Shown here: positions 9,932-52,539 of the stretch, piece after piece
How positions within the stretch are numbered: position 1 is the first letter of the stretch
Layout: the number at the start of each line of letters is the position of its first letter
Assembly: GCF_963921235.1 (NCBI RefSeq)
Contig: NC_086107.1
Coordinates: 110,238,001-110,302,000, forward strand
From: Mobula hypostoma
Lineage: Eukaryota
Direction of reading: 5' to 3'
DNA: 64,000 nucleotides
Translations under genes and position numbers: made by a program
Notes under the pieces: generated by a model
Database searches by the model: none
The model's input: the letters and a program-made list of their open reading frames with translations, nothing else
What the model was told of the DNA's origin: nothing

Positions 9932-11670
9932 CAGTGGATTCCAGTTAATTGGGACACATTGGGACCCCAGTATATTTTGGCTCAAATAGCCAAAGTTTCA
10001 TGGTGTTAGACTCTATAATTGTTATTTTCTCTGCAGTTTTAACAATGTTTGCCTGCTTGTATTGTATATAATTACCTATATACGTGTATATACATGTAAT
10101 TGTTCAGCCTGTTTCCAAGTGGTTACAGTTCTGCCTCTTTCTGGAATTTTCTTTGGTATTGAACTATTTGATAGGGTTGAACTGATTGGTCAACTCTTGT
10201 CTACAAATCTGAATGAAATAAGGGCTGAGCATATTGACTCACCATCTTTCTTTCTTTGCTTCTTCTTTCCCTACCCCTACTAGCCTCTCGCTACTTCTCG
10301 TTTTCAATTCTCTTTGTTCTATTAGTGCTTAATAAAATGATTGTGAAGCAACAAGTTTTTTGCCTCTTTCTTGACCTCTGAAAGAACCTTGGATCAAAAG
10401 CATCAGAATCCAACAATGGAAATAGTTAAAATATATTTTTTAAAAAGGCAAGCTACCGTTTAACTGAATAACAAATTATCCATTTAAAAGAAATGCAGGA
10501 TAAATTAGAACACTACCAGTACTACCACAGTACTATAAAACTGTTATAGTTCCTAATCGGTATCGACGGAGGAATTCATCCAGTGTATACTGTTGTGTTC
10601 TCTTGATTGGCTATAAATGATCAAAATCAACGCAGACACCCAGTGCAGATGATGAACTGGCTTCACTGCCTTCCTGCATGAATCAATGTTATAATCTAAC
10701 AATAAATTTCCTACCATCCTATATAGTCACTAGTTCAAGTTCAGATGCATTATCTTCATCATTTTCCTTGTCTTCGTATTTCCTGCCTTGGTGTTATGAT
10801 ACAATGCTTTCGATGACTGCATCCTCCAAACCTTCAGGGAGTTTTGTACATTTCCATGTTTCTGCACCTGCAGAATCAGCACCATCTTTCTCGCCTTGTA
10901 CTTTCTTGAATTTAATGTGGTGCCTACGTTTCCACCGAAACAACCAACCATCTGTTGCTTTAAAATCTTTGTGACCCAGCTTCTTAGCTAGCTCCTCTGA
11001 CACGTTTTTTAACATTGGTCCACTGACACGTACACCTCGACCAGTTACAATGGAAAACCATTGATTGAGGGCCTCTTCAACATTTGGATCCTTACTTTCA
11101 CGCTTTCGTTTTTGGGATGTTCCCTGTTGACCCTCACGTAATGCCCATTCTCGCAGTTTATCTTGCTGAAGTATCAAGCGTGCAATCGTAGATTTTGGCA
11201 CTCCAGTTATCTCCGCCAGCCGACGATAAGTGGTGTTAGGCGGATGACTTTTAATTTGATCCAGTAGGGTAACTTTTTCGGCTAGTGTCAAATCTTTTCG
11301 TGCCATCTTGGCAAGAGTCTGAAATTTTTTAAAGTCAAAATAAAAATCAGAATTATCAAAAATCACTGCTTTTTGAATCGGTGTCCCTCGGCCCAAATGG
11401 ATAACATATCACAAGCACACGCAACTGGCACGATCTAAAAACTGTTCGCTCCATGCAAGGTGCAGTGTCTAATCGCCACAAAAGTGCACATGACTGATGC
11501 TAGTTAGAAACCGTTCAGCATTAGTCTCCTTTCCCAATTAAGTGAATAGTGTCCAAACAAATAAAGGGAATCCTGGCTATTTTCTTGATTAGAATTTTTG
11601 TTCTTTATGAGTTGCCCCAAATAAGTGGCTGCCCCAGTTAACTGATGACCCAATTATCTGGAATCCACTG
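9932..11670 (-). mobile_element. Tigger/pogo DNA transposon, internally deleted
   Basis: TIRs CAGTGGATTCCAGTTAATTGGG ... CCCAATTATCTGGAATCCACTG, with TA on the right flank. Encodes CENP-B-type HTH domains. Confidence 0.85.
10794..11306 (-). pseudogene. Truncated Tigger transposase ORF (CENP-B N-terminal HTH + Tc5 HTH, no DDE), 170 aa from ATG
   Basis: RKDLTLAEKV...RRLAEITGVPKSTI; VEEALNQWF...VSGPML...FKATDGWLFRWKRRH. No DETG motif. Confidence 0.8.
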
Positions 11671-13641: not shown

Positions 13642-13647
13642 TTTATT
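13642..13647 (-). terminator. Candidate polyadenylation signal AATAAA for the recombinase isoform
   Basis: AATAAA on the minus strand about 27 nt after the stop. Further copies lie downstream (e.g. 13101-13106). Confidence 0.4.
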
Positions 13648-13673: not shown

Positions 13674-15002
13674 TCATGTTAGTGGTTCCTGCTTTATGAC
13701 ACAGCTTTGCAAGAAGATCCCACTATTTTTCCCAGGCATTGTGCTGCTATTTAATGCCGCTACATTCCCTGCAGAAGATGAAGTTCCTGGCTGTGATTCA
13801 TGTACTACAGAGCTTGGAGTTGTGTAAATGTAGTTGAATCCTGCATCATCTAACATGTCGGACCAGGCTCGGTACTGAAAGTCAGCAGCTCCCCAGTAGT
13901 TTCTAATACTGGATTCTGAGCGGTGCCCAGTAAGTGCCATGATCTCCCGTGCTCCAAGGCCTGCATCGCACAGGAGGCGAACAGTCGTGGTTCTGAGCGA
14001 ATGGTTGGTATACCTCTGGGAGAGTCTGGCAGCAACACTGATCCTAGGCATCATGCTTCCCAGATAGTTTACCCCCATTGGCTCACGTTTATACCAGACA
14101 GGTTGCTCACGTAACTGTTCTGGTGTTAATTTTAGAGGGTGAAGGTAAAAAGCAGGAGGGTCAGGTGGCCGCTTAGATATATAAAGTTCAAGTGAAGTGA
14201 CTGGACAGTTTGCATCGCCTGGCATATCATACATCCGACCCAGCTTCAGCGGGTCTCTGCTTTTCCCAGTATATTTTAGCATTGCATAGCGCCGTCCGTT
14301 GGAGTCTTGCTTAATAACAAAAGCGTTTGGAGGGAGGTCCCTAAGGATTTCCCGCCCACGCTTGGCAAAGTGCAACTGCAGGTCAAACCAGACTTTGTTC
14401 ACGAGTGCCAGGGGTGTATGAAGTCCGAGGACCCCCGATGTTCTGATCTTCTGTAGGTCACCTGCATTAATGGGAGGGTGGTGATTTGTTTCATCCTTCC
14501 CTTGCTTTCTTAGTATCTTAAGCACACCCAGAAACACATTATTGGCACCGCTGAATTCTTTATCCTGCATCAGGCAGATTTGCCGGCTGTAAGGAGGCAT
14601 CTTAAGGTGCCTATTTAAACCAGCTCGGATTGATTTATAACTGGAGATACTGTAAGTGTTACCATCATGATTCCTCACTGTGCCATAAAACTCTCTCAAA
14701 ATACCATTAAGTTCTTCCACTGATATAGCTTCAAATTTATCATCTTTTCCCTTTTCAATGAGCCACTGTTTTAAGATATTCACTGCCCAATCTGTCTGCT
14801 TGCGTGTGTTCTTCTCGTTGCGTTCCTCCTCGAGACCAATGAGATCATCTTCCGTCACACTACCGTGCCGTCGGGTTCCATCTAAAAGCGCGTCACTGGC
14901 AACGTGTTCATCTGCCAATTGGTCCTCAAAACTGAGCAGTGTGCTGCCATCGAAAATGCCATAGGTGTAGAGTGGGGAGTGAGGCGCTGTTTTTTCGGAC
15001 AG
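13674..15002 (-). CDS. Crypton-derived tyrosine recombinase / DUF3504-like alternative terminal exon of ATF7IP (442 aa)
   Basis: The 414-aa ORF (TTG start in the track) stays open for 28 more codons up to acceptor caattcacag|CTG at 15002 (phase 0). Motifs: NTRKQTDWAVN, LREFYGTVRNHDGNTYS, KRGRE, CPV, WY..EPMGVN, TNHSLR, TGHRSESSIRNY. Confidence 0.88.
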   Translation of the reverse strand: MSEKTAPHSPLYTYGIFDGSTLLSFEDQLADEHVASDALLDGTRRHGSVTEDDLIGLEEERNEKNTRKQTDWAVNILKQWLIEKGKDDKFEAISVEELNGILREFYGTVRNHDGNTYSISSYKSIRAGLNRHLKMPPYSRQICLMQDKEFSGANNVFLGVLKILRKQGKDETNHHPPINAGDLQKIRTSGVLGLHTPLALVNKVWFDLQLHFAKRGREILRDLPPNAFVIKQDSNGRRYAMLKYTGKSRDPLKLGRMYDMPGDANCPVTSLELYISKRPPDPPAFYLHPLKLTPEQLREQPVWYKREPMGVNYLGSMMPRISVAARLSQRYTNHSLRTTTVRLLCDAGLGAREIMALTGHRSESSIRNYWGAADFQYRAWSDMLDDAGFNYIYTTPSSVVHESQPGTSSSAGNVAALNSSTMPGKNSGIFLQSCVIKQEPLT

Positions 15003-16164
15003 CTGTGAATTGCGGAGTAATACGTAATTTTTTGATATGATACTTTAAATATTAAAAAAAAAACAAATTATCCAGCAGGTGGTGCTTGTTATTAATGTTT
15101 CCGCAAGGGTGTGCCAATACTCAACAGCGCACATCCCAATAACCAATCACTTTAACACATTACAAACCATGGCATTACATATTGTCACTCAATAAACAGC
15201 AGAAAAACCCAAACTGGCTTTGAGTTTGGAAAAGGAAAATAACACTAAATCTCTATCATAGCTGGCAAATCTTTCAGCTACTGAGAAATCATGATTCCAA
15301 ATGGGGAAGAAAGCATCCATATCATGTCTGTATTCTCTAGAAGAACTGGAAAAATTTTATTGCTGTAGAGAAGAGAATCTGTAATAGAAATGGGAAAAGG
15401 CTTACAATGTTTGATAAATGAACCTTGACTGATTGAACAACTTGTGTGTCAGCACTTTGATGTGCTTCATCCGTATGCGGAGACTAAATGCTGTTCTGAG
15501 GCAAAGCAGCTAATCACATCACAATTTCCACTGTGTTGAAGCATTCGGAAATATTTTAGCCGCAAACTTTGAGGAGTGAATGGAGCCGTACTATGCTGTG
15601 CTGTTCTAGTTTCATTCAGAGAATCTTTCCAGTTTATTTAGAGAATGCACAATTGTTAACAAATTTTACCCTTCCATTTTTTTTAAATAAACAGTGGTTT
15701 GTACAATTGTCTTCTTTGTGGCAAGGGGAAGTTATAAATGCACAACTTAAGGCTTTCTGCCCTCCCTTCACATCACACCTCTGAGTATTTGTGGAAGTTT
15801 ACAACTTAGCATCTCAAATTTTAAGATATGAAGACAGTGAAAAGCTGTGGCATCTCTTTCAGATCAGATCCCTTGTGGACTTAGTAAATTTATCAACGAA
15901 AGGCTTGGTTATTTTATAATTTACTGACAGTGGAGAAGTTAACCTGAAGAGCATGTCACTCCTTAGTGGGCCAGTGGAGCAAGCAGGTCCATGTCCAACT
16001 AACCTGAGAGTGGAACAATATGAAGATTTTGGGTTGACCATCTTCCTTTACAGACAACAGCCAGGAATAACTGTACTATTCCACTAGCCACACTGGTCAG
16101 CAGTCTCAACTTAATGAACTATCAATGAAGCTAAAAATCGTCTGGATAAATGTGCTACACCCAC

Positions 16165-16256
16165 CTGGTTGCCACTAGGGGATGCCTTCTTGGTGGCTGT
16201 TGACTCTCCTGGAACCGCTGTAGAATGTCTCTGGGTGGCCTGACTGAGGCTACTTT
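16165..16256 (-). CDS. ATF7IP: ATF7IP coding exon (ESSLSQATQR...KKASPSGNQ), last shared exon before the recombinase exon
   Basis: ctttactcattaacag| acceptor, CAG|gtgggt donor; 92 nt, phase 1-0. Confidence 0.82.
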
Positions 16257-17629
16257 CTGTTAATGAGTAAAGGCAGTTCATTAATATTTCAGTTTGACAC
16301 AAGGATGATAGAAAGATTAAAGACATTTTCATTCAAAGTATCTTTGTCCCAACAATCGCTACAATACTTACCTTTCTTCTTGGTTGCAAGTGCAATTCTA
16401 GTTTTAAAATGAGCTCCAGCAACTTGAACAAATATTTTTCTTACAACTCCAATTGAAGCTCAACAAAAAAGGTGCCACAGAAGGCAATGACGCATCTTGA
16501 AATTGTCCCTTAAATCATAAGCACTGGCCCTTTACATTCTGCTACCTCATTTTCAATTGTCTTTGTTTTGACCGATGTGGTAAACACCACAGTTCTAGCT
16601 CTTTAAAAATCTGTGAGTCATTTGTGCTACTATTAGTATTGGCTGTCCACATTTTCATCACTTTCTGCAGTTTTTCTAATTTATATCTAGATCCAAAAAG
16701 GTGATAGGTCATACATCAATTGCTTCCTTTCATGATTTCTGGGACAAATTCAATGAAAATTTAAATGAGTTACATTGGTCGTATTTTCAAATTTAAATGA
16801 ATTGATTCTGTTAAACTCACAGACATGATAATAGGAGGTGGCTATGTTTTACTTACTTTAGTCTAGTCCATTGTTAAATACATGTTGTTATGCAAAGTAG
16901 CTTTTCTACTTTTTGAATTTGTAGGGATTAAAAGCTTTAACTACAAAGCTCAAAATATTGTTTTTCAGGACTAAAAGGGTACCTCATATAGTGCAAGGTA
17001 TTATTCCACTAGGTGTAACTCACTAATCTGTAAGTATTACACTTCTTTTACCACTTCTTTCACCACTATTACCAGTTCTTTTAACCTGATGTAGTACGCA
17101 ATACCATCTCAGCGCATCTATAATCTTCTATCATATCAACACAAGCTTTTAGTAGTGATGGCCATGCGATTTCTTCACCAAAGCCATGCGGTTTTCCTCT
17201 ATTGCCCAGGTGAGTGAGATTGCCTCTCTGTTTTATTCTTCTCTATCTAGCACAGCCCTGAGGTTCTCCTTGAATAGCTTGTTTCCTGCTCAGTTGTGGA
17301 AAACACCAAGGAACAGCCCATTACCTTCCTGCTTCTCACCCTAATATTACCCTCAATTTCATTATCTAAAAATAGGCCAGCCTTCAAAAATATGTCAACA
17401 CTTGACTCTGCACAGCAACACCAGATAATGACACCAGTTCATCATAAATAATATCTTCTAATTACATATTACGGGGTGGCGATCCCTGAACTGAGATTTT
17501 CATTTAAATACGAGGAAAATCTTGGTCCTCACCAGGAATCAGTTCTGTATAAACTGGAGGTAAACCAGTAAGCTTCTTGTGACATTGTTGGCTGCTGATT
17601 GGATTGAATGCTGAATAACTGCATTTGAT

Positions 17630-18930
17630 AGAACATAGAACAGTAAGCATAGCACAGGAACAGGCCCTTTGGCCCACAATGTTCTGCTGAAGCAGCTAAA
17701 AATTAAATTAAAAAACCCCCAAAACTAATCCCCCCTACCTACACAACATCCACATCCCTCCATCTTCCTCATATTCATGTGCCTATCCAAATGTCTCTTA
17801 AAAGCCTAATGTACCTCTACCACGATACAAAGCAGCTCATTCCAGGCATCCTCCACTGAATAAAAAAACTTAACTCGCACATCCTCTTTAAACCTACCCT
17901 CTCTCGACTACAATGCATGCCCTCTGGTATTAGGCATTTCTACCCTGGGAAAAAGATACTCTCCACCTACTCTATCTATGCCTCTCAATCTTTTAAACTT
18001 CTATCAGATCTCCCCTCAGCCTCCGTTGCTTCAAAGAAGCAACCCAACTTTGTCCAACCTCTGATGATAGTACATACCCCCTAAACTAGGCAGAATCCTG
18101 GCAGGTCTCTTCTGCACCATCTCCAAAGCCTCAAAATCCTTCCTACAGTGGCACGACCAGAACTGTATGTAATGCTCTAGATGTGGCCTAACCAGAGTCC
18201 GATAAAATTGCAACATATCCTCTTGACTTTTAAAGTCAATGCCATGACTAATAAAAGCATTTCATAAGCCTTCTCATCGACCCTATTGACTTGTGTATCC
18301 ACTTTCAAGGAGCTATGAACTTGGACCCCAAGATCTCTCAGCTCAGCAACACTGTTAAGGGTCTTGCCACATTAACGCACATTTATCTGGGTTAAATTCC
18401 ATCTGCTATTTCTCTGCCCATATCTGCAACTCATCTATATCGCGCTGCATACTTTACCAGTCTTCTACACTACCCACAACTCCATCAATCTTGGTATCAT
18501 CTTCAAATTTATTAACCCACATCTACATTCTCATCCAGGTCTTTTATATACATCACAACAACAGAGGTTTCAGCACAGATCTTTGTGGAACACCACACAC
18601 TTCACTCCATGCTCAACTACGTCCCTTCAACCACTACTCTCTGTCTTCTATGCACAAGTCAGTTCTGAATCCAAACTGCCAATTTGTCGTGGACCCCATG
18701 CATCCTAATCTTATGGATTAGCCTCCCATGAAGGATTTTGTCAAATGTCTTACCAAAATCCATGTAGACAACATTTACTGCTCTACCTTTACCAATCTCT
18801 CATCACTTTGTCAAAAAACTCAAGTCAAGGTGGTAAGAGCCATGCTGGCTCTCCCTAATTATGCCCTGGGTTTCCAAGTGCTCCTATATCCTATCCCTAA
18901 GAATTTCCTCCAGCAATTTCCCTACAACTG
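17630..18930 (-). mobile_element. CR1 LINE 3' remnant
   Basis: LQFYRTLVRPHLEH..QFW is a CR1 RT C-terminal motif, with a TTCTATGTTCTA-type tail. Confidence 0.8.
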
Positions 18931-20424
18931 ACATTAGATATTTCACATTATGCTATACTACTGCTATAGTGGAATCTGTCCAACAATTTTTTTTCTCCCT
19001 TTTAAGACCAGTCTAAGTATACATACAAGCCTGAGGTTACTCAGGTTTTAATAAATATGAAAGAATTTTTACAAGTTTGCAGGCATAAAACAATCAGTTT
19101 GCTGCACCACTCCAAATATAGCAGCATATCTGATATGAGGTTGGTCACAATAATTCTGACAATATGCCACTGTACAAAGAACATTTTCTATTGTGTACCA
19201 TGCAATATATTACCTTGGTAAGAACTTGCCTTTTAAGTGTTAGGAAAACATTTGCGTTGGATACTCAGACCACCTGGTACGCCAGCGAACTGGTATTTTC
19301 AAGCTCTACTCAGATCCAGCTACAAGTCCGAAATATAATAGCAAAATTGCTACCTTATTTTGCTTTGTAAGTATTTTGTTATTTGGGCATGCCGACACAT
19401 TCTCACCATGGTCTCACAAGCTGTTTCAAATTTACTAACAGAAGCAATGAACAGCACATTTGCAGCATTTTCTGTTTTTTTGTTAAATCCCAGAAGTCCA
19501 ATGTACACTGTAACCCAACGTTACTGACATATAATAATAAGCCTTTATACGGCTGAAGTTCCAGAAGCACGGTTAAGGGCAAGTGGGAAACTAATTTACC
19601 TCAGTTGCAAGGTTCATTTAAGTGTTAGCTATACTTGCTTAGTCTACCCTTTAATTCCTGAACTGTCAATTAAAGGGGCCAATGAATCACTAAACAAATT
19701 CAGTAAGATGCATTTCAATAAACCAGAATTTAACCAACTTAGTTGGGAATGAGGGAATAGGGATAAAATATAAGAATAAAGTCAGCATTTTCTTATTTCA
19801 GACTCCAGACAATTCCAGCATCAGTGCTCCTTCAACTCTTCTGCAGGTTACCGATAAATTTATATGTCAGAGAATCAGCAGGTGGTCTTTCAGTCCATCA
19901 TTGTTATGCTAGCACCTTGGAAGACCAACAGAGCTACCGGAGAGGTCAATATCAAAATCAGAACACCAGCAGCTCCAGTAGCTGCATAACCGAGCAGACT
20001 TACTTTCCAATTCTTTCACAGATCTCTGCAAATTTCTTCAAGTACATTACTTTTTAAAATTGATTTTATGATTACATTTCACTCTCCCTTCATGGTATGC
20101 TTGCCAGAATACAGATTTTTTTCTCTCCAATTTCCCCTCCCTACCATTCTTCATCGTTACTCTGATTACCTTTTAATCCTAGGACGTCTGGTTACTAGCC
20201 CATCTGACAATGGGATTAGTTCCTCTTTTGAGCAGCTCTATTAAGTCTCCCTTTAACCTACCCAAACAACCCTCAGTTCCTTAGACTCCATATCACTAAA
20301 GTCCCTCATCTTTAATAACCCTCCCTCAAAGTATTGTTATTCCTTCCAAAATGTTATATCCTGAAATGAATATTAAGTTCCAGCAGAGGTCTAGTCTGTG
20401 ATGCCAAAGGTGCATCTACTGAAT

Positions 20425-20650
20425 ACTGACTTGAAGGGGATGAATAGTTATGCAATCAATTATTTTATGTTTTATATTTGTCATTAATTTAGATTACTTT
20501 GCAGAGATTTGTTTTCACGTTGACATGAAAAAGTCTTTTTCTGTTGATCAGTGTCAAAAAAGCCAAATTAAATCCACTGTGATTCAAAGTTGTAAAACAA
20601 TAAAACATGAAAACTTCCAAAGGGGGTAGTCAATACCTTTTATAGGCACT
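20425..20650. mobile_element. Tc1-like terminal fragment
   Basis: Internal direct repeats AAGGGG..GAATA..T and terminus TTTTATAGGCACT-ATA, similar to Tc1 IR/DR ends. Confidence 0.45.
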
Positions 20651-20815
20651 ATAGGTAAAACCTTTTCACAGCTTAACAACACGGAAAAATTACAAATTTA
20701 TTGACAGTAAAAGGCAGCACAATAAAACCCAGCAATATGATGCTAACTTAATGAATGCACAGAAGACATAATTTCAATATGAACATACAGCTTGCTGCAC
20801 ACGAGTTGTCATTAC

Positions 20816-21436
20816 CTGTTCTGGAGGTTCCTGTATTGGTTGTATCTGAACTGGTAGGTAAAGGCTGACCTGATGACACAGACATTTGCCCTTGGCTGTA
20901 AGTCTGTGAAGGCCTTGGCTGTATTGCAGGCCTAGAAGTTGTTGAAGGGCTAAAATGTCCTGGAGAGTTCAAAGATTGCTGTGACGTCCGGGAAATTTGG
21001 GGTGAAAGAACAGTCTGAGTACTAGTCACAGAAGCAGTCTGACTGGAAATTGCGCTACTGATTTGCATTGATCCCATCGTTGCAGGGGACTTCCTCTGGA
21101 CTCCTGGGCTTGGCAAAGAAGTACTAGCACCATTTGTTTTTGCTACATTTGCTGGCATTTGTGATGCGAGTGACTTCGGGAGGTTGTTAAGCGAGGGTTG
21201 GGACTGAACAGGTAAAAATTCCAGTCCGGGCTGCTGGTTGGTCACCAAGGTGTTTGGTGACGCCTGCAGGAGCTGAGGTTGGGAAGACATTGCCACTGGA
21301 ACGGTAAGTAATACTGGCACTGACTGTAGAGATACTGGCATAGGCTGGTTACTGCCAGAGGTTGGCAGTGACTGATTGGTTCCTACCACTGCGGCAGTTG
21401 CTGGGAGCAGAGGAGGAAGCACACGACCAGATGACC
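20816..21436 (-). CDS. ATF7IP: ATF7IP S/T/P/Q-rich coding exon
   Basis: SLQSVPVLLTVPVAMSSQPQLLQ and TLVTNQ..EFLPVQS resemble ATF7IP. ttttgccgttgcag| acceptor, ACAG|gtaatg donor; 621 nt, phase 1-1. Confidence 0.9.
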
Positions 21437-22211
21437 CTGCAACGGCAAAACATCCTTTAATTAGAGTCTGTAAATAGTATATACTTCCTACTCCAATTCA
21501 TCCACTATAATGGCCCCCACCCATGCAGTTGGCTAGTCTGGTGGTTAAGCCTTTAATTTGACTGATGGTAGGATTGCAAAATGGGCAGGGCCAATTCAGA
21601 TATGTTGTACAACCCTTTGGTGCCTAAACACATGACACAATGGGGCAGTAGGATACAGATTTAATATTGTGGTACCATATGAACCAACTGCTGATGCTTT
21701 CCCAGAAGACGTGAAGAGAGCAAGTCATTAAGCCGAAAACACAGCAACACTGGCATCTCATTATATTAAAGTTAACAAGATAACTGTTTTAAATGTGAAT
21801 GAAATTGATGGGTATCTACAAATTCTTATAATACCCTAAATTACTTTCTAACAAATCAGCAATTATCTTTTTCTCTTATCTGGATGGCAAATATGTTAAA
21901 TCGCAAAACTTATGATTAAATCTCAAACAAAAAAAAGTTGGCAAATTGGATGCTTAAAATAATATTAACTGTTTTAAGTCCTGCTCTCTCTTCTGCTCTT
22001 CAGGGCAACACATAATCAGAAAATATAAAAGTTATAAAACTTTGCTGGAAACCAAATAGGTCCAGTAAAGAAGCCAGTGATTTGAATCCTAAGGAAAGAA
22101 GAAATCACCCGAATTTCTCTTCTGAAAAGCAGAATTTTCTTCCTCAATTAAAAGTAGTAAAACATTATATTCTCACAAATCAGTTCCTTTGGAGCCACAT
22201 CCTGCAGTTTA

Positions 22212-41109: not shown

Positions 41110-41420
41110 TACACATCTGGTGTTTTCAATCATTTTACTTGCATTACAGAGATTCCAATAGCAGGTTAACCTGTTTAACTGGAACCAAAATCCTAATTTC
41201 ATAAAGGTGCTCTTTAAGCTTACAATGACACAAGACAAAGTTGAGTATTTGAGGGAGATTTACAGAGGTATCCACAATAACCATTTCAAACATATTATCA
41301 AGTCTTGAATCTTTATTCGCAAGCAGTGAGGAACTGGGAGCAACTCCGGTCATTTGTCAACCGTTTTTCCCAAATTACTTCCACATTTTGTACAGAGTGA
41401 CTATGGATTCTCATAATTAC

Positions 41421-41558
41421 CTGTAAGCCACTGATTAAAGATTCGTGCCTTGTATTGCATTCTATCTTTTCGACTCTGTTTTTGAGCTCTGCCAATTTCT
41501 TATCAAAAACACCACTTTGCAAGGCATTGATACGCTCTTCAATAATCTGTTGAACGAT
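41421..41558 (-). CDS. ATF7IP: ATF7IP coding exon, coiled coil (IVQQIIEERINALQ...SGLQ)
   Basis: FDKKLAELKNRVEKIEC resembles the ATF7IP SETDB1-binding coiled coil. tttttgcacag| acceptor, CAG|gtaatt donor; 138 nt, phase 0-0. Confidence 0.93.
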
Positions 41559-42259
41559 CTGTGCAAAAATAAAATTGGAGTTACACACTGTGGGTAATAC
41601 TATTGCCCCCATTCCTATGCATTCGCTTCGGCTGGAAAACCTGCCTCAGCGCTTAAGCCATCACATACTTTTGTGATTTCTGCAAAAAGACATGAATGAT
41701 ATTATTCCACATGCAGCACTCTTGCTGGCGATTTATAGGAGGCCTTAGACCATTTAGCTCAAAGAATGCTTATTGTAGGACAAACGTAAGTTGACTTGGT
41801 GCTAACTTTGAAACTGCAGATCTGTCATGTGAGAGTTAAATAAATGTAAAGCTGAAATCGACAAGTTTTTGGATGGAGAATAAACACAGCATCAAGGCAA
41901 GTTGTGGCGGGCAGGGCAGGGCAGGGGTGGTAGCTGATGGAATGGATAAAGCATAGGATCAGATACTGAATGGCTGAGCAACCCTTTGATCTTCTTCTCC
42001 TTGTTCCTATATAATGTGCCTAAAAATTCTGATTAATATGTGTCCACAAATCCTAGGTACAAGTGCCAATCATCTACTATTCATCATTTCACGTTTTTCC
42101 ACACCTGATTTAGAAAGTAATCAAATTTCTAGAATTGTAATAAGTAAGATAATTGGCCTGAAAACCAATAACCTAAGTGCCAGTATCAGGTTAGCAGGGT
42201 TAAGAAAGACTTCAGTCTAGAAAGCGAGATGCTGAGAAAATGAAATATATCCTGGTAGG

Positions 42260-49237: not shown

Positions 49238-50336
49238 CTGCACTATCATTTTTTGGTACCAGCTCTTCACTTTCTGTTTGCTTCTCAGCTACCGGCTCAT
49301 CCTCATCAGACAAGACAAGAAATGCTTCTTCAGGCAAGTTGCCATTACATTCCTCTTTTGAGGGAGAATTATTGAGAGAAGTGTCCATTTGTTCTTCTTG
49401 CAATGGACTGTCCTTTGGCGTTGGGGATTCCACTGCAGGATCATTTTCTTGCTTGCTGGATAATTCACCATCCTTCTCTGGAGCCAATTTCTCCAGAATA
49501 GGAATTATATCTCCAATTTCCAATTGGCCACTTCCAACTGATCTGTTCTCATTTAATGCATCTTTTGTTGCACTTTCACTTTCAGTCTCTGCACACTCCA
49601 CTTTAGAGTTCTCACTGTCATTTTTCTCCTGTACAGATTCTACGCTACTTGTTATTGCCTCTTCACTAACACCCACTGAATTTTCACAGACTTCCTTTTC
49701 CCTCACAGAGGAAGATGATGATGACTGTAACAAAAGATTACTCTCATCTGGTACATCGTGAGCCCCATTTTCATCAACAGGGGGTGGTTTCCCTTCATCT
49801 GAAAGGCTCGGATCAGTACTTGAATTATCTGCTATTGAAGGCTCCTCCTTTGACGCAACAAACTCTGGTTCCACAACATCATTTGCTTTGCTATCACTGT
49901 CCGTCAAAACTTGGTTTTCTGCACTTTCAGCAGATATTTGTTCATCTTCAGCAACTGAGGGCATAGAGTCCATTTTTTCATCTTGTGGGCTTGAGTCCTT
50001 ATCATCACTAAGACATTTTTCAGCAAGACTTAGTTCAGGTATTTGTGCAATGCCAAGATCGTCAACGGAGTTGCCTTGCAGTTCTTCTGGACCCAGCCTC
50101 ACATCATTAATGCAGTCAATGTCTGTATCATCCATGCAGTTGGTACTTAATGACGTTTTGCCATCGGAATCGCCATTCTCGTGTTTACCATTACAGAGTT
50201 TAGTTTTGGTTTCTTCATTGGCTTTTAAAAGCTCCTCTCTGCTTTTATAGATAGCTTCTAGCTGTTGTCGGTCACTTGCGCGCATGGTTTTTCTAGCCTT
50301 GAAAACTTTTCTTGGAAGCTCTTCACTGGTATCCAT
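49238..50336 (-). CDS. ATF7IP: ATF7IP first coding exon (exon begins 50346; ATG at 50336)
   Basis: MDTSEELPRKVFKARKTMRASDRQQL closely resembles the vertebrate ATF7IP N-terminus and is followed by a long acidic region. Acceptor ...cttttcag|GCATTCTGAGATG; donor GCAG|gtacat; 1099 coding nt, phase 1. Confidence 0.95.
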
Positions 50337-52539
50337 CTCAGAATGCCTGAAAAGTAAGAAAGAAACATTGTGATATAACTCAACGGGTCAGGCCCTCTAA
50401 GTCATTCACTGCTGAATACCTTGCATACAGGGTCAAAAATTATCAGGTCATTTTGATTTATGATGACTTTCAAAGTAATTTTTTAGCATACAATAACTGT
50501 AGTGAATTTAGTTCAACTACTTTTACAAAGATAAATTAATTGCTTATTACTTAAACATGCTTTAATAATCTAAAGATGTCATTCAGAGCCAACTACTTAC
50601 AATGCTAATCTAAAATGTTAAGGTCATTGACATGTAGTATTAACTCTTTCCCTCTGCAGATGCTGCTTGACCTGCTGAGATTTTTCTTGACATACTTTAG
50701 CCAAATTGACAAATATGGCCAACAATGCTTATTCAACGCACATATGCATTGTAGGTATTTGTACTGAATCAGTGGAAATTGCTAGTAAATCAGAACATGC
50801 TCTAGTAACTGTAGCGCTACTTTTGGAGGGCCAAGTCCCCCTGGGTTTCCAAGATACAGGAACACAATGTAAAACTGCAGCAACAACTGATCTGAAGGTC
50901 ATTGATAGGATTAGAGTATATCCATTACTATGTTATTTATTAAATTGTTATTTCTTATCTCTCTGCAGATGATTTCCAACTGCTGGGGCACGTTATTTCA
51001 AAATGAAGAGTCCACATAAGCGTTGACTGGTAAGAACAGCAAGATTAACCAAGCTGAAGGACCGCAATGTAATGAAACGGATATTTAAAAGAAGAATCTG
51101 AAACAGCAACAATATTGTTACACCACTGGATTATTGTATGTCTGATGACATGAGAATTTAATTCTACGTAGCGGTCATCATGGAATAAGTTAGTCAGTTT
51201 AGAAGTAATAGAATTTGAAGAAACCAGTGTATTAGAATTGTATGTTGTAATTTACATTAACAATGTGCTTATTTTTCAATTTCAAAATTGGCTCAATTGC
51301 TAGTTTGTCAAACTCAAAGTCTTCCTAACTGCCTTCTCACATCTTAATGCACAGAAAATAAATAAGCTAGAATTACTGTTACGTCCTATGTACTATGACA
51401 TTCTCCATATAGTGTCATGAGACTTTTCCCCCTCCATTTAATCAAAAACTAGATCCAACACTATAGACAAAAAAAAGGACATTCCAATTATGCAATTTGT
51501 GTTCAAACCACCCGAGAACATCACTAAACGTATCCAAAATACCATGAACTCTTACAACAACCATGTGGCATTTTTTTGGAATCCAAACACCCGAGGAAAA
51601 CTGGTTCCTCTTTCTCCTTCTCATTACATTCTTAAAGTTGTAGAGTAAATTTGTTGAACACAACCTCCCTTTCATAAACTGGTTCTGTGTGAATGCATTC
51701 AGTGATACTCTACCTATGATTGCCCATTAGACAGAAATGAGCTGACAGTGTGGAGCTGTTTTGAAGAGAGCTGGTGATACGCCACTCCCACTAATGAAGT
51801 TCCCAATAAGACCCATAGAGTCCCAACACATCAAGTGACAGACGCCTTGCAACACAACCCAACAGAATCAGGATTTCCCATTGTTACATTATGGAAAATT
51901 CAACTGCTCCTTTCATGGGGCCCTGTAACACCAAGTGGCAACTAAAGGAATATAGCTAAATTAATTTTGTTTGTTTTAAATGAACTATTTAAAACACATT
52001 TGAAAGTTTAAAAAACCTTTTTTAAAAAAAAAATAAAGTCATCAAAGCCTAACTTTGATGGAAACAAGGCTCTACAACTGGGCTTCCTGCCTGTCAAAAG
52101 CTCTCTGGAGATGTGGGGCTAGTCCTCAGCTCTGCCCTGTCTAAATGCTTGGTCTTCGTACACCTCTTGGGTTCAAGATTTAGCTTATCTGGCGCTCTGC
52201 ATTCAAACCAGCTGCAGCTGGGTTTCGACTATAAGCATCAAGGTGTATTCAGGTGTGTCCACTCATATTTTCAGTTCCACTATTTAAAATTAGTTCCACC
52301 ATCAGGAATCAGACCTTAATTGTTTTGAGCAATTTCTACATATTTTGCGTAATCAATGTGATATATTGTTTCCTGGTAACCAATCCAGCATGCATTTCTC
52401 TTACACGTTACCCCTGGCAAAAGTAACCTAATTTGTTTCAGAACCCAAAAATGCTAAAGTGCCTCATTTTTCAAGATCAAGGCCAAATAGGAGAAGAAAG
52501 AAAGACAGTAGAGAGACCTAGGCTTTAAGGAAGCATTAG

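What the first reader, a model, noticed from the sequence alone, without database searches (positions are those of the whole stretch)
13896..14360. Recombinase catalytic residues appear intact
Seen (ORF numbering): R187 in KRGRE (14358-14360), H306-x-x-R309 in TNHSLR (14001-14003, 13992-13994), H332 in TGHRS (13923-13925) and nucleophile Y341 (13896-13898). Candidate catalytic lysines are K215/K219, in a loop that looks short. Known: tyrosine recombinases use R-K-H-R-H/W-Y, and several domesticated DUF3504 proteins have degenerate catalytic sites. Inference: this host exon could still nick, relax or recombine DNA, which would place an enzyme on a chromatin-silencing scaffold.
Basis: partly seen in the sequence, partly recalled or inferred. 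Interest (0 to 1): 0.85.

Follow-up and report, generated by a model that had tools for sequence, protein, structure and literature searches.

The report
Crypton recombinase exon of ATF7IP
An ancient transposon's DNA-cutting-and-joining domain survives as an alternative last exon of the gene-silencing cofactor ATF7IP in a cartilaginous fish, with almost all catalytic residues in place; this case is already in print for birds and chimaera and has never been tested at the bench.

Summary
The frame 13677-15002 (-) is the Crypton-derived tyrosine-recombinase (YR/DUF3504) exon of ATF7IP. It has canonical splice sites and no ATG before residue 107. It is single-copy in the 3.48 Gb genome and lies between ATF7IP exons. 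NCBI annotates ATF7IP isoforms ending in this domain in sharks, a ray, a frog, turtles and many birds.

An AlphaFold model (pLDDT 85.7) matches whole Cre recombinase (Z 19.8, 297 residues). R187, E190, H306, R309, H332 and Y341 have the same spacing as Cre R173, E176, H289, R292, W315 and Y324.

The lysine is the weak point. The family-invariant Lys column holds Arg221 here, with K219 two residues upstream in a loop 3 residues shorter than in relatives.

70 of 79 named species keep the set. Galliforms and hoatzin lack H332 and Y341, and pigeon has Y341C.

This is not new. Kojima & Jurka 2011 described the intact YR in ATF7IP and suggested activity, and Frith 2022 dated it to the gnathostome ancestor. 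Activity remains untested. I put true strand cleavage at about 30% and non-recombining DNA engagement at about 55%.

The parts
13677..15002 (-). Crypton-derived tyrosine-recombinase (DUF3504) exon, the alternative 3' terminal coding exon of ATF7IP. The stop codon is at 13674-13676.
   Evidence: ORF. Pfam. tblastn of the Heterodontus ATF7IP isoform X3 (P0017) gives 87.6% identity over 445 aa. Acceptor and reading phase.
15003..15004 (-). Splice acceptor AG (ttcacag|CTG), phase 0.
   Evidence: The junction reads ...PSGNQ|LSEK..., as in P0017.
16165..16256 (-). Upstream ATF7IP exon (92 nt). Its donor GT is at 16163-16164 and its acceptor AG at 16257-16258.
   Evidence: The joint 16256->20816 was seen in 4 of 4 runs, with 92 letters on this side in 3 of them.
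20816..21437 (-). ATF7IP Ser/Pro/Gln-rich exon, joined to the 92-nt exon in transcripts.
   Evidence: tblastn. Joint and contigs.
41406..41570 (-). ATF7IP exon that encodes part of the SETDB1-binding ATF7IP_BD domain.
   Evidence: Pfam PF16788, E 4.9e-17. tblastn.
49245..50345 (-). ATF7IP large N-terminal coding exon.
   Evidence: tblastn of P0017 aa 2-370, 72.5% identity.
14937..14969 (-). Conserved motif YTYGIFDGSTL at the start of the exon, upstream of the folded domain.
   Evidence: Present in sharks, a frog and some bird isoforms. 89 of 116 rows lack it, and those looked at (e.g. P0070) are bird isoforms that start further in.
14505..14852 (-). N-terminal helical domain (aa 23-138), the counterpart of Cre's core-binding domain.
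   Evidence: AF2 helices with pLDDT above 90. Model residues 25-358 align with Cre 28-341.
13845..14486 (-). Catalytic domain (aa 145-358). It includes a C-terminal helix, aa 346-358, in the place of Cre's last helix.
   Evidence: Catalytic-domain-only matches: HP1, P2 and lambda integrase cores, Z 8.6-10.5.
14358..14360 (-). R187, the first active-site arginine (R-x-x-E box).
   Evidence: R in 124 of 126 rows, the other 2 being gaps.
14349..14351 (-). E190, the glutamate of the R-x-x-E box (Cre E176 position by spacing).
   Evidence: Cre residue list from the section headings.
14235..14276 (-). Beta2-beta3 loop KYTGKSRDPLKLGR, holding K215, K219 and R221. It is 3 residues shorter than in relatives. 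The family's invariant Lys column falls on R221.
   Evidence: 9-nt in-frame insertion in a related organism's contig behind 14254. pLDDT about 80.
13992..14003 (-). H306-S-L-R309, the H-x-x-R box.
   Evidence: Aligned to the XerA H..R box. H in 122 and R in 121 of 126 rows.
13923..13925 (-). H332, at the position of Cre W315 by spacing.
13896..13898 (-). Y341, the putative nucleophile.
   Evidence: Aligned to the XerA tyrosine. Y in 109, C in 2, L in 1 and gap in 14 of 126 rows.
13677..13700 (-). Conserved C-terminal VIKQEPLT at the end of an otherwise fast-evolving, low-confidence tail (aa 359-414).
   Evidence: endings of the x-[IVM]-K-[QK]-E-P-x-T kind, VIKQEPMT alone being 87, in 101 of the 115 rows that one search printed (116 examined). 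pLDDT below 50. Tail differences 3 synonymous against 10 non-synonymous.
13642..13647 (-). AATAAA polyadenylation-type signal, about 30 nt after the stop codon.
   Evidence: This is a sequence match only; the end of the transcript was not shown.

Best explanation
This is the ATF7IP Crypton relic: the tyrosine-recombinase gene of a CryptonA-type DNA transposon that entered an ATF7IP intron before jawed vertebrates diverged and was kept as an alternative last exon.

Splicing from the 92-nt exon (donor at 16163-16164) to the acceptor at 15003-15004 gives an ATF7IP isoform that keeps the N-terminal region and the SETDB1-binding domain. The usual C-terminus, including the FNIII domain, is replaced by a complete Cre-like two-domain clamp.

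Shown here:
- exon structure, single copy and orthology;
- the fold;
- six of seven Cre-type active-site residues with Cre's spacing;
- very slow evolution.

Inferred: the clamp closes on DNA and holds a backbone phosphate in the preserved R-E-H-R-H-Y pocket, so that ATF7IP-SETDB1 is tethered to particular DNA sites or structures. I think the selected function is most likely this DNA engagement without recombination, that is, binding or at most slow reversible nicking. Three things point that way. The general-acid lysine is displaced in this species. Bird lineages that lost the tyrosine keep the rest. No target sites or programmed rearrangements are known.

The identity of the element is near certain (about 0.95). 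The confidence given below is for the functional reading.
For: Identity:
- DUF3504 at E 4.3e-12.
- Best long hits are ATF7IP isoforms with ATF7IP_BD plus DUF3504 in Heterodontus (88%), Chiloscyllium (86%) and Narcine (86%), then birds, turtles and Ascaphus. Callorhinchus P0002 reads ...GGGSQ|LSEKTAP....
- Nine ATF7IP exon blocks map colinearly on the minus strand.
- Splice sites are canonical AG/GT and in phase. There is no ATG before residue 107.
- There is one copy in the genome. The fn3_4 exon lies at C45:110220839-110221141, about 30.5 kb downstream on the same strand.
- The ATF7IP-YR clade of 10 rows is monophyletic (100/100), with end branches of 0.012-0.08 in sharks, ray, chimaera, turtle and finch (frog 0.19, the sturgeon fragment 0.44), against a median of 0.53 over all rows.

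Fold:
- pLDDT 85.7, pTM 0.77.
- Cre 2hoi_A at Z 19.8, rmsd 3.5 A, 297 aligned residues, model 25-358 against Cre 28-341. Also XerA 16.5, XerH 14.5, IntI4 14.2 and lambda Int 10.7. Foldseek gives E 6.9e-9 to Cre.

For binding rather than turnover:
- Arg221 sits in the family's Lys column.
- In Cre, no Lys201 substitution gave measurable recombination in vitro; several, K201R among them, kept weak activity in vivo. No substitution of the tyrosine works.
- Galliforms (3 species) and hoatzin are cut before H332, and pigeon has Y341C, yet the retained part is still 98.6-99.6% identical within galliforms.
- The solved DUF3504 relative QRICH1 works in a coregulator complex on DNA-bound zinc-finger factors without a catalytic set (title of entry 9hjt; citation seen).
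Against: - All six unambiguous catalytic residues are kept in 70 of 79 named species, from sharks to birds. Every other domesticated DUF3504 gene lost the tyrosine and the second arginine. The paralogues in this same genome also lost them: R309 is G, Y or S, and H306 is F or T. That contrast is what one expects if the chemistry itself is under selection.
- Lineages that lost the nucleophile differ more from a turtle over aa 40-320 (13-22 of 281) than intact ones (median 9, 55 of 59 at 12 or fewer). This fits a constraint tied to the intact site.
- K219 is kept in 77 of 79 species and could serve as the general acid from a flexible loop. The Cre paper itself warns that this lysine is hard to place in alignments.
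- DNA binding has not been shown either.
Confidence: 0.55

Rival explanations
1. The domain is still an enzyme. Y341 attacks a DNA phosphate, activated by R187, R309, H306, H332 and E190, with K219 (or K221 in birds) as general acid. The ATF7IP isoform therefore nicks, relaxes or recombines DNA at heterochromatin.
For: - The spacing is the same as Cre's seven-residue site: R-x2-E, H-x2-R, then +23 to H/W, then +9 to Y (against the residue numbers in the section headings).
- The box II block aligns with XerA.
- The full Cre-like fold includes the last helix.
- 70 of 79 species keep the set.
- Birds keep the canonical K-N motif of the Crypton family: YPGKGKNGEDP in 86 bird rows.
- 91 of 119 family members carry R-H-R-H-Y.
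- Bird and turtle differ at only 8-10 of 281 positions.
- Lineages without the tyrosine evolve faster.
Against: - In this species, other chondrichthyans and turtles, the canonical Lys column is Arg; in the frog it is Pro.
- The loop has lineage-specific indels and lower model confidence.
- The tyrosine or the H332-Y341 block was lost at least three times in birds without decay of the rest. Mammals lost the ORF.
- Pigeon does not differ from its intact relative Pterocles in divergence (13 against 13).
- No recombination sites, target DNA or rearrangement phenotype is known.
- The conservation tests here are not corrected for shared ancestry.
Confidence: 0.3
2. The domain is a protein-protein adaptor that does not need DNA. 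The recombinase fold has been re-used to dock partners in place of the FNIII domain it replaces, as in other DUF3504 proteins.
For: - QRICH1's DUF3504 region is the best sequence match among solved structures (E 1.2e-6). It was solved inside a coregulator complex (9hjt).
- Kojima & Jurka proposed protein-protein interaction as one of two likely roles.
- The exon replaces the FNIII exon, which lies downstream of it. The FNIII domain is reported to bind ZMYM2, itself a DUF3504 protein (passage seen).
Against: - It does not explain why the phosphate-binding and nucleophile residues are kept here and lost in all the adaptor-type relatives.
- The structural match to QRICH1 is poorer (Z 14.6, rmsd 17.2) than to DNA-bound Cre (Z 19.8, rmsd 3.5).
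Confidence: 0.1
3. It is an intronic transposon relic that is not spliced or translated in this species. The open frame and the annotated isoforms would be prediction artefacts.
For: - In the four runs laid, the contigs over the exon are colinear with the genome across the predicted acceptor (for example X1 14204-15168, X2 14443-15218, X4 14813-15063, X5 14476-15244).
- Their depth is about 3-6 (X5 about 14), against 34-97 for the canonical ATF7IP contigs.
- No joint to 15002 was among the 15 joints shown.
Against: - The frame has stayed open for the whole of jawed-vertebrate history, with 86-89% identity among chondrichthyans and about 70% to birds.
- Against a related organism, differences are 16 synonymous to 10 non-synonymous in the domain, and the one indel seen in the ORF is in frame.
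- Real transposon remains in the same genome behave differently. The neighbouring Tc5-type ORF has at least 151 copies, most of them with stop codons.
- Contigs drop rare isoforms, and 124 joints were not displayed.
Confidence: 0.03

Closest known systems
ATF7IP Crypton-derived YR of zebra finch, chimaera and alligator (Kojima & Jurka 2011, PMC3212892, passages and sections 9-10 read; Frith 2022, PMC9004415, passages read)
   Same: - Same gene and same place in the gene.
- Same intact YR frame and the same predicted fusion to ATF7IP.
- Same speculation that catalysis is kept.
- Same galliform frameshift, seen here as truncated chicken, Tympanuchus and Cyrtonyx proteins.
   Different: - This is another cartilaginous fish, with whole-gene context that the 2011 paper lacked for chimaera.
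- This species has a loop 3 residues shorter after K219, and Arg in the canonical Lys column.
- The structure model, the Cre mapping, the species tally and the pigeon and hoatzin losses did not turn up in the papers I searched and read.
Cre recombinase (and the XerA, XerH, IntI4 and lambda Int tyrosine recombinases)
   Same: - Two-domain C-clamp fold, matched over 297 residues at Z 19.8.
- Identical spacing of R/E, H/R, H-or-W and Y.
- The box II block is aligned to XerA by profile.
   Different: - About 12% identity.
- His in place of Cre's Trp315, as in most YRs.
- The placement of the lysine is uncertain.
- No known target site.
- The domain is fused to a chromatin cofactor.
- Pfam Phage_integrase scores below its cut-off.
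Domesticated DUF3504 genes KCTD1, KIAA1958, ZMYM2/3/4 and QRICH1
   Same: - Same CryptonA-type origin and the same Pfam family.
- Most are transcription or chromatin regulators.
   Different: - All of those lost the tyrosine and the second arginine.
- The copies in this genome have G, Y or S at R309 and F or T at H306.
- The ATF7IP exon keeps them.
CryptonA transposons
   Same: YR sequence at 44-47% identity to presumed element copies (P0011, P0013) that carry R-H-R-H-Y.
   Different: - Single copy and syntenic across jawed vertebrates.
- No start codon of its own, and spliced to a host gene.
- It is therefore not a mobile element.

Membership tests
Tyrosine recombinase / integrase superfamily | Catalytic-domain fold plus N-terminal core-binding domain | tested here: met
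   AF2 model with pLDDT 85.7. Cre at Z 19.8 over 297 residues, covering both domains. XerA, XerH, IntI4, Tn1549 Int and lambda Int at Z 10.7-16.5.
Tyrosine recombinase / integrase superfamily | Box II residues H-x-x-R ... H/W ... Y | tested here: met
   H306, R309, H332 and Y341. They align column for column with XerA in a profile search, E 1.2e-4. The spacing equals that of Cre 289/292/315/324.
Tyrosine recombinase / integrase superfamily | Box I arginine with glutamate (R-x-x-E) | tested here: met
   R187 and E190. In the family alignment R occurs in 107 and E in 108 of 119 rows. The equivalence to Cre R173/E176 rests on spacing and on position before a helix, not on a residue-level superposition.
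Tyrosine recombinase / integrase superfamily | General-acid lysine in the beta2-beta3 loop | tested here: inconclusive
   K219 lies in the loop and is kept in 77 of 79 species. However, the family's invariant Lys column (108 of 120 rows) holds Arg221 here. The loop varies in length.
Tyrosine recombinase / integrase superfamily | Pfam PF00589 above its gathering score | tested here: not met
   23.2 bits against a cut-off of 27.1, E 6.3e-5, and only aa 277-342.
Tyrosine recombinase / integrase superfamily | The residues meet in one pocket, and a covalent 3'-phosphotyrosine intermediate forms | not testable with these tools
The chemistry needs bench assays.
DUF3504 (PF12012) | Pfam model above its gathering score | tested here: met
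   46.8 bits against a cut-off of 29.7.
ATF7IP Crypton-derived exon (Kojima & Jurka 2011) | Lies inside ATF7IP, on the same strand, between the mid-gene exons and the FNIII exon | tested here: met
   Exon map. ATF7IP_BD. fn3_4 exon about 30.5 kb downstream.
ATF7IP Crypton-derived exon (Kojima & Jurka 2011) | Orthology to the YR of ATF7IP isoforms in other jawed vertebrates | tested here: met
   86-88% identity to shark and ray isoforms and about 70% to birds and turtles. Clade support 100/100.
ATF7IP Crypton-derived exon (Kojima & Jurka 2011) | Spliced to ATF7IP exons in RNA of this species | tested here: inconclusive
   The splice sites fit. Contigs of four runs cover the exon but run unspliced across the acceptor, and the junction was not among the joints displayed.
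Crypton transposon (mobile) | Several copies in the genome and an autonomous coding frame | tested here: not met
   One copy. The other four matches are 27-42% identical paralogues. There is no ATG before residue 107.

The most novel reading that the evidence does not exclude
The ATF7IP-YR isoform is a working phosphoryl-transfer enzyme tethered to the SETDB1 cofactor. On this reading it is the one domesticated Crypton recombinase that kept its chemistry.

It would also be the oldest example of a recurrent pattern in which Crypton recombinase domains are captured by heterochromatin-silencing modules. Annotated proteins 38-50% identical to this domain by pairwise BLASTP include:
- KRAB-YR in two salamanders;
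- SCAN-YR in axolotl;
- THAP-KRAB-YR in a lungfish;
- MORC3b-DUF3504 in a killifish;
- a second, non-orthologous YR on a toadfish ATF7IP isoform.

In such a pathway the recombinase clamp would recognise recombinase-type DNA sites or structures and bring silencing, or a covalent nick, to them.
Probability: 0.15. Interest if true: 0.85.

Novelty: already known. Interest (0 to 1): 0.42.

Why it matters
ATF7IP is the obligate partner of the H3K9 methyltransferase SETDB1. Work on it is done almost wholly in mammals, which have lost this exon.

If the non-mammalian isoform binds DNA through a recombinase clamp, it is a direct, zinc-finger-independent way of aiming SETDB1. If it also cuts and rejoins DNA, it would be a rare domesticated tyrosine recombinase in vertebrates that still works.

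The question has been open since 2011. It can be tested with natural controls that this analysis points out:
- birds, which have the canonical lysine;
- sharks and turtles, which have Arg in that column;
- pigeon, which has Y341C;
- galliforms, which lack the last two catalytic residues.

Tried and rejected
- **RNA evidence.** No RNA holder was listed on record. The runs are RNA by a guess, which the spliced joint 16256->20816 in 4 of 4 runs supports. I could not show the 16165|15002 junction. Only 15 of 139 joints were displayed, contigs drop rare forms, and the cap is one call. Parts without cover are not used as evidence.
- **Homodimer of aa 20-362** (complex prediction): no support, score 0.01. 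This is not evidence either way. The tool folded without my alignment.
- **Pocket geometry.** I wanted distances between the seven residues in the model, but no coordinates are given out. Convergence in one pocket is therefore inferred from the whole-chain match to Cre and the equal spacing only.
- **The search of earlier findings** returned nothing.
- An early note said the box I arginine might be 'R185'. That was a miscount.
- **Toadfish ATF7IP isoform** (P0153, R309K). I first took it for the teleost orthologue. The tree places it with other family members (99/95), outside the ATF7IP-YR clade, so it is not used as an orthologue.
- **Stand-alone Crypton or independent gene.** Rejected: single copy and no start codon.
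- **Mann-Whitney figure** (p 5.7e-5). It ignores shared ancestry, because about three independent losses underlie the six rows, so I do not lean on it. In sister comparisons, galliforms (15-17) exceed ducks (9) and hoatzin (17) exceeds the median (9), but pigeon (13) equals Pterocles (13). Two intact species are also fast (Colius 29, Porphyrio 19).
- **dN/dS.** Codon-level dN/dS across orthologues could not be run, because no eukaryotic nucleotide collection is on hand. The synonymous/non-synonymous count uses only the 40 differences that displayed (149 were not shown).
- **Literature.** Searches for ATF7IP with DUF3504, with Crypton and with tyrosine recombinase found 2, 4 and 4 papers. None of the four distinct papers reports an assay of the domain. 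A search for 'host-transposase fusion' with Crypton found one review, which I did not read. Supplementary figures S3-S5 of Frith 2022 were not opened.
Full report
**Observation.** The minus-strand frame 13674-14918 (414 aa; 456 codons stop to stop) is real. R187 is the first arginine of K-R-G-R-E, so R187-x-x-E190 forms the usual box I pattern.

**What the frame is.**
- Pfam gives DUF3504 (E 4.3e-12, above cut-off) and a sub-threshold Phage_integrase match over aa 277-342.
- Near-length relatives are 84-89% identical in chondrichthyans, including Callorhinchus, and 66-74% identical in turtles, birds, coelacanth and sturgeon.
- A search among longer proteins found 110 hits at E <= 1e-30. Nearly all are named ATF7IP isoforms with ATF7IP_BD plus DUF3504: Heterodontus, Chiloscyllium, Narcine, Ascaphus, sea and soft-shelled turtles and dozens of birds.
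- The Heterodontus isoform maps to nine colinear blocks on the window's minus strand, from 50345 down to the recombinase exon. One block carries ATF7IP_BD.
- The 92-nt exon 16165-16256 ends ...AACCAG|GT. The recombinase exon begins ttcacag|CTG at 15002. Both are in phase 0 and give ...PSGNQ|LSEK..., as in the shark protein.
- The frame has no ATG before residue 107, so the whole domain cannot be made on its own.
- An AATAAA follows the stop by about 30 nt.
- In the 3.48 Gb assembly the domain is single-copy. The other four matches are 27-42% identical paralogues.
- The ATF7IP FNIII exon lies about 30.5 kb further downstream on the same strand. The recombinase exon is therefore internal to the gene and acts as an alternative terminal exon.
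- By contrast, the Tc5-type ORF 2.3 kb downstream belongs to a family of at least 151 mostly broken copies.

**Already in print.**
[quoted passage not shown] It reports an intact YR frame in zebra finch and in a short Callorhinchus contig, a shared frameshift in chicken and turkey, relics in mammals, predicted alternative splicing, and the sentence that the YR may be translated as part of ATF7IP and retain catalytic activity in some birds.
- The same paper states that KCTD1, KIAA1958, ZMYM2/3/4 and QRICH1 all lost the tyrosine and the second arginine.
- My searches found no assay of the domain.

**Fold and active site.**
- With a 120-sequence alignment, AlphaFold gives mean pLDDT 85.7 and pTM 0.77, with residues 20-350 mostly above 90.
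- Foldseek and VIA-align put Cre-DNA complexes first: Z 19.8, rmsd 3.1-3.5 A, about 295 of 320 residues, model 25-358 on Cre 28-341. After Cre come XerA, QRICH1, XerH, IntI4, Tn1549 Int and lambda Int. Both domains and the last helix are therefore Cre-like.
- The section headings of Gibb et al. 2010 list Cre's seven active-site residues as R173, E176, K201, H289, R292, W315 and Y324. Here R187/E190 (+3), H306/R309 (+3), R309 to H332 (+23) and H332 to Y341 (+9) have the same spacing.
- The constant offset of 17 agrees with the end of the structural alignment (358 on 341). A family profile aligns the H..R, GH and Y columns with those of XerA.

**The lysine.** It is the exception.
- In the ungapped family alignment, the nearly invariant Lys of the T-K-N-H motif (108 of 120 rows) falls on Arg221. 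K219 lies two residues upstream.
- Birds, coelacanth and sturgeon have K at both places. Chondrichthyans and turtles have K219 and R221. The frog has K219 and P221. The emu has R219 and K221.
- This species also lacks 3 loop residues that its relatives have.
- In Cre, lysine and tyrosine are the two strictly required residues. K201R kept only weak activity in vivo and none measurable in vitro, against an expected slowing of about 100-fold. The authors warn that this lysine is hard to place in alignments.

**Conservation and natural losses.**
- Of 79 named species, 70 keep R187, E190, K219, H306, R309, H332 and Y341.
- The nine exceptions are: three galliforms and hoatzin (cut before H332), pigeon (Y341C, also in an unnamed related sequence), emu (K219R), one parrot (loop deletion), and partial coelacanth and sturgeon records.
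- Over aa 40-320, birds differ from a sea turtle at a median of 9 of 281 positions. The six nucleophile-less rows differ at 13-22. This is suggestive but is not corrected for ancestry, and pigeon equals its intact relative Pterocles.
- Within galliforms the retained part is still 98.6-99.6% identical, so a tyrosine-less protein stays under constraint.
- The ATF7IP-YR clade is monophyletic (100/100). Its end branches are 0.012-0.08 in sharks, ray, chimaera, turtle and finch (frog 0.19, the sturgeon fragment 0.44), against a median of 0.53 over all rows.
- Against a related organism's contig, the displayed differences are 16 synonymous to 10 non-synonymous in the domain and 3 to 10 in the C-terminal tail.

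**RNA.**
- Four runs show the canonical joint 16256->20816 (GT..AG on the minus strand) at depth 34-97. In three of them exactly 92 letters lie on the small exon, after which the contig leaves the stretch that was laid. This fits splicing to a canonical exon further downstream.
- The recombinase exon is covered at a depth of about 3-6 (14 in the related organism) by contigs that run unspliced across the acceptor.
- The junction to 15002 was not among the joints displayed. Use of the exon in this species therefore rests on the splice sites and on annotation in relatives.

**Reading.** The identity is secure. For function I weigh two facts against each other.
- This is the only domesticated Crypton recombinase that keeps the nucleophile and both arginines, over more than 400 million years.
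- However, the general-acid lysine has wandered, the tyrosine has been lost several times without decay of the rest, mammals dispense with the exon, and no target site or rearrangement is known.

I therefore favour a DNA-engaging clamp that tethers ATF7IP-SETDB1 without recombination (0.55). A true nicking, relaxing or recombining enzyme comes second (0.30), then a pure protein adaptor (0.10), then an unused relic (0.03).

**In passing.** Relatives 38-50% identical to this domain by pairwise BLASTP are annotated as fusions to KRAB, SCAN, THAP-KRAB, BTB, MORC3b and zinc-finger arrays in salamanders, lungfish and teleosts. Two of them, Pleurodeles KRAB-YR and axolotl SCAN-YR, keep R-H-R-H-Y. A toadfish ATF7IP isoform carries a YR that is not orthologous by the tree.

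**Verdict.** The case is already known, and what remains open is the bench test.

Noticed in passing
window 10794-11408 (-): ORF of 204 aa with a Tc5-transposase DNA-binding domain (PF03221, E 7.6e-15), 2.3 kb downstream of the recombinase exon. It belongs to a pogo/Tigger-type family with at least 151 matches in the genome (1437 first-look candidates), most of them with stop codons. It is an ordinary transposon remnant and a useful contrast to the single-copy recombinase exon.
   Followed up: yes
window 13677-13700 (-): The last eight residues, VIKQEPLT, are conserved from sharks to birds (VIKQEPMT in 87 of 116 rows), although the preceding tail is variable and modelled with low confidence. 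The core I-K-Q-E fits the hydrophobic-K-x-E pattern of SUMO acceptor sites (recalled, not tested). This is of note because the exon lies upstream of, and so replaces, the usual C-terminal exons; that these hold a SUMO-interacting motif is also recalled, not tested.
   Followed up: partly
window 14937-14969 (-): The motif YTYGIFDGSTL at the start of the exon is conserved in sharks, a frog and some bird isoforms (YTCGIFDGTTL). Bird isoforms such as P0070 start further in and lack it, so there seem to be two alternative acceptors in birds; 89 of 116 rows lack the motif.
   Followed up: partly
window 14254-14264 (-): This species lacks three codons after K219 that five other chondrichthyan sequences have. 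A related organism's contig has a 9-nt in-frame insertion at this place.
   Followed up: yes
proteins P0128, P0129, P0130, P0133, P0132, P0227, P0182, P0225 (other species): Relatives of the domain are annotated as fusions to KRAB (Pleurodeles, Ambystoma), SCAN (Ambystoma), THAP-KRAB (Protopterus), BTB (Clupea), MORC3b (Nothobranchius) and C2H2 zinc-finger arrays. Pleurodeles KRAB-YR and axolotl SCAN-YR keep R-H-R-H-Y; the others are degenerate. Whether these are real transcripts was not checked.
   Followed up: partly
protein P0153 (Thalassophryne ATF7IP isoform X2): A teleost ATF7IP isoform also ends in a DUF3504 domain (38% identity, R309K). The tree places it with other family members rather than in the ATF7IP-YR clade (99/95). 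This points to a separate insertion into ATF7IP or to a prediction artefact.
   Followed up: partly
proteins P0107, P0008, P0116-P0122 (birds): Natural losses of the nucleophile. Pigeon and an unnamed related sequence have Y341C. Chicken, Tympanuchus and Cyrtonyx share a truncation after ...EAGLGP. Hoatzin is truncated after ...EAGL and also has R189T.
   Followed up: yes
window 17455-19116 and 20225-20778: Summed contig depth in the RNA-type runs is in the hundreds to thousands here, with many internal joints and loose ends. This looks like transcribed high-copy repeats inside the ATF7IP introns. They were not identified.
   Followed up: no
G000 C1:177934412-177936787 (+) and C12:134873703-134900751 (-); loci L002-L005: These are paralogous DUF3504 loci in the same genome. 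One is in two exon-like pieces, 39-42% identical, with R309 replaced by G. Two are 27-31% identical, with H306 and R309 replaced. They were not named here by any search; KCTD1-like and KIAA1958-like is my guess from the literature.
   Followed up: partly
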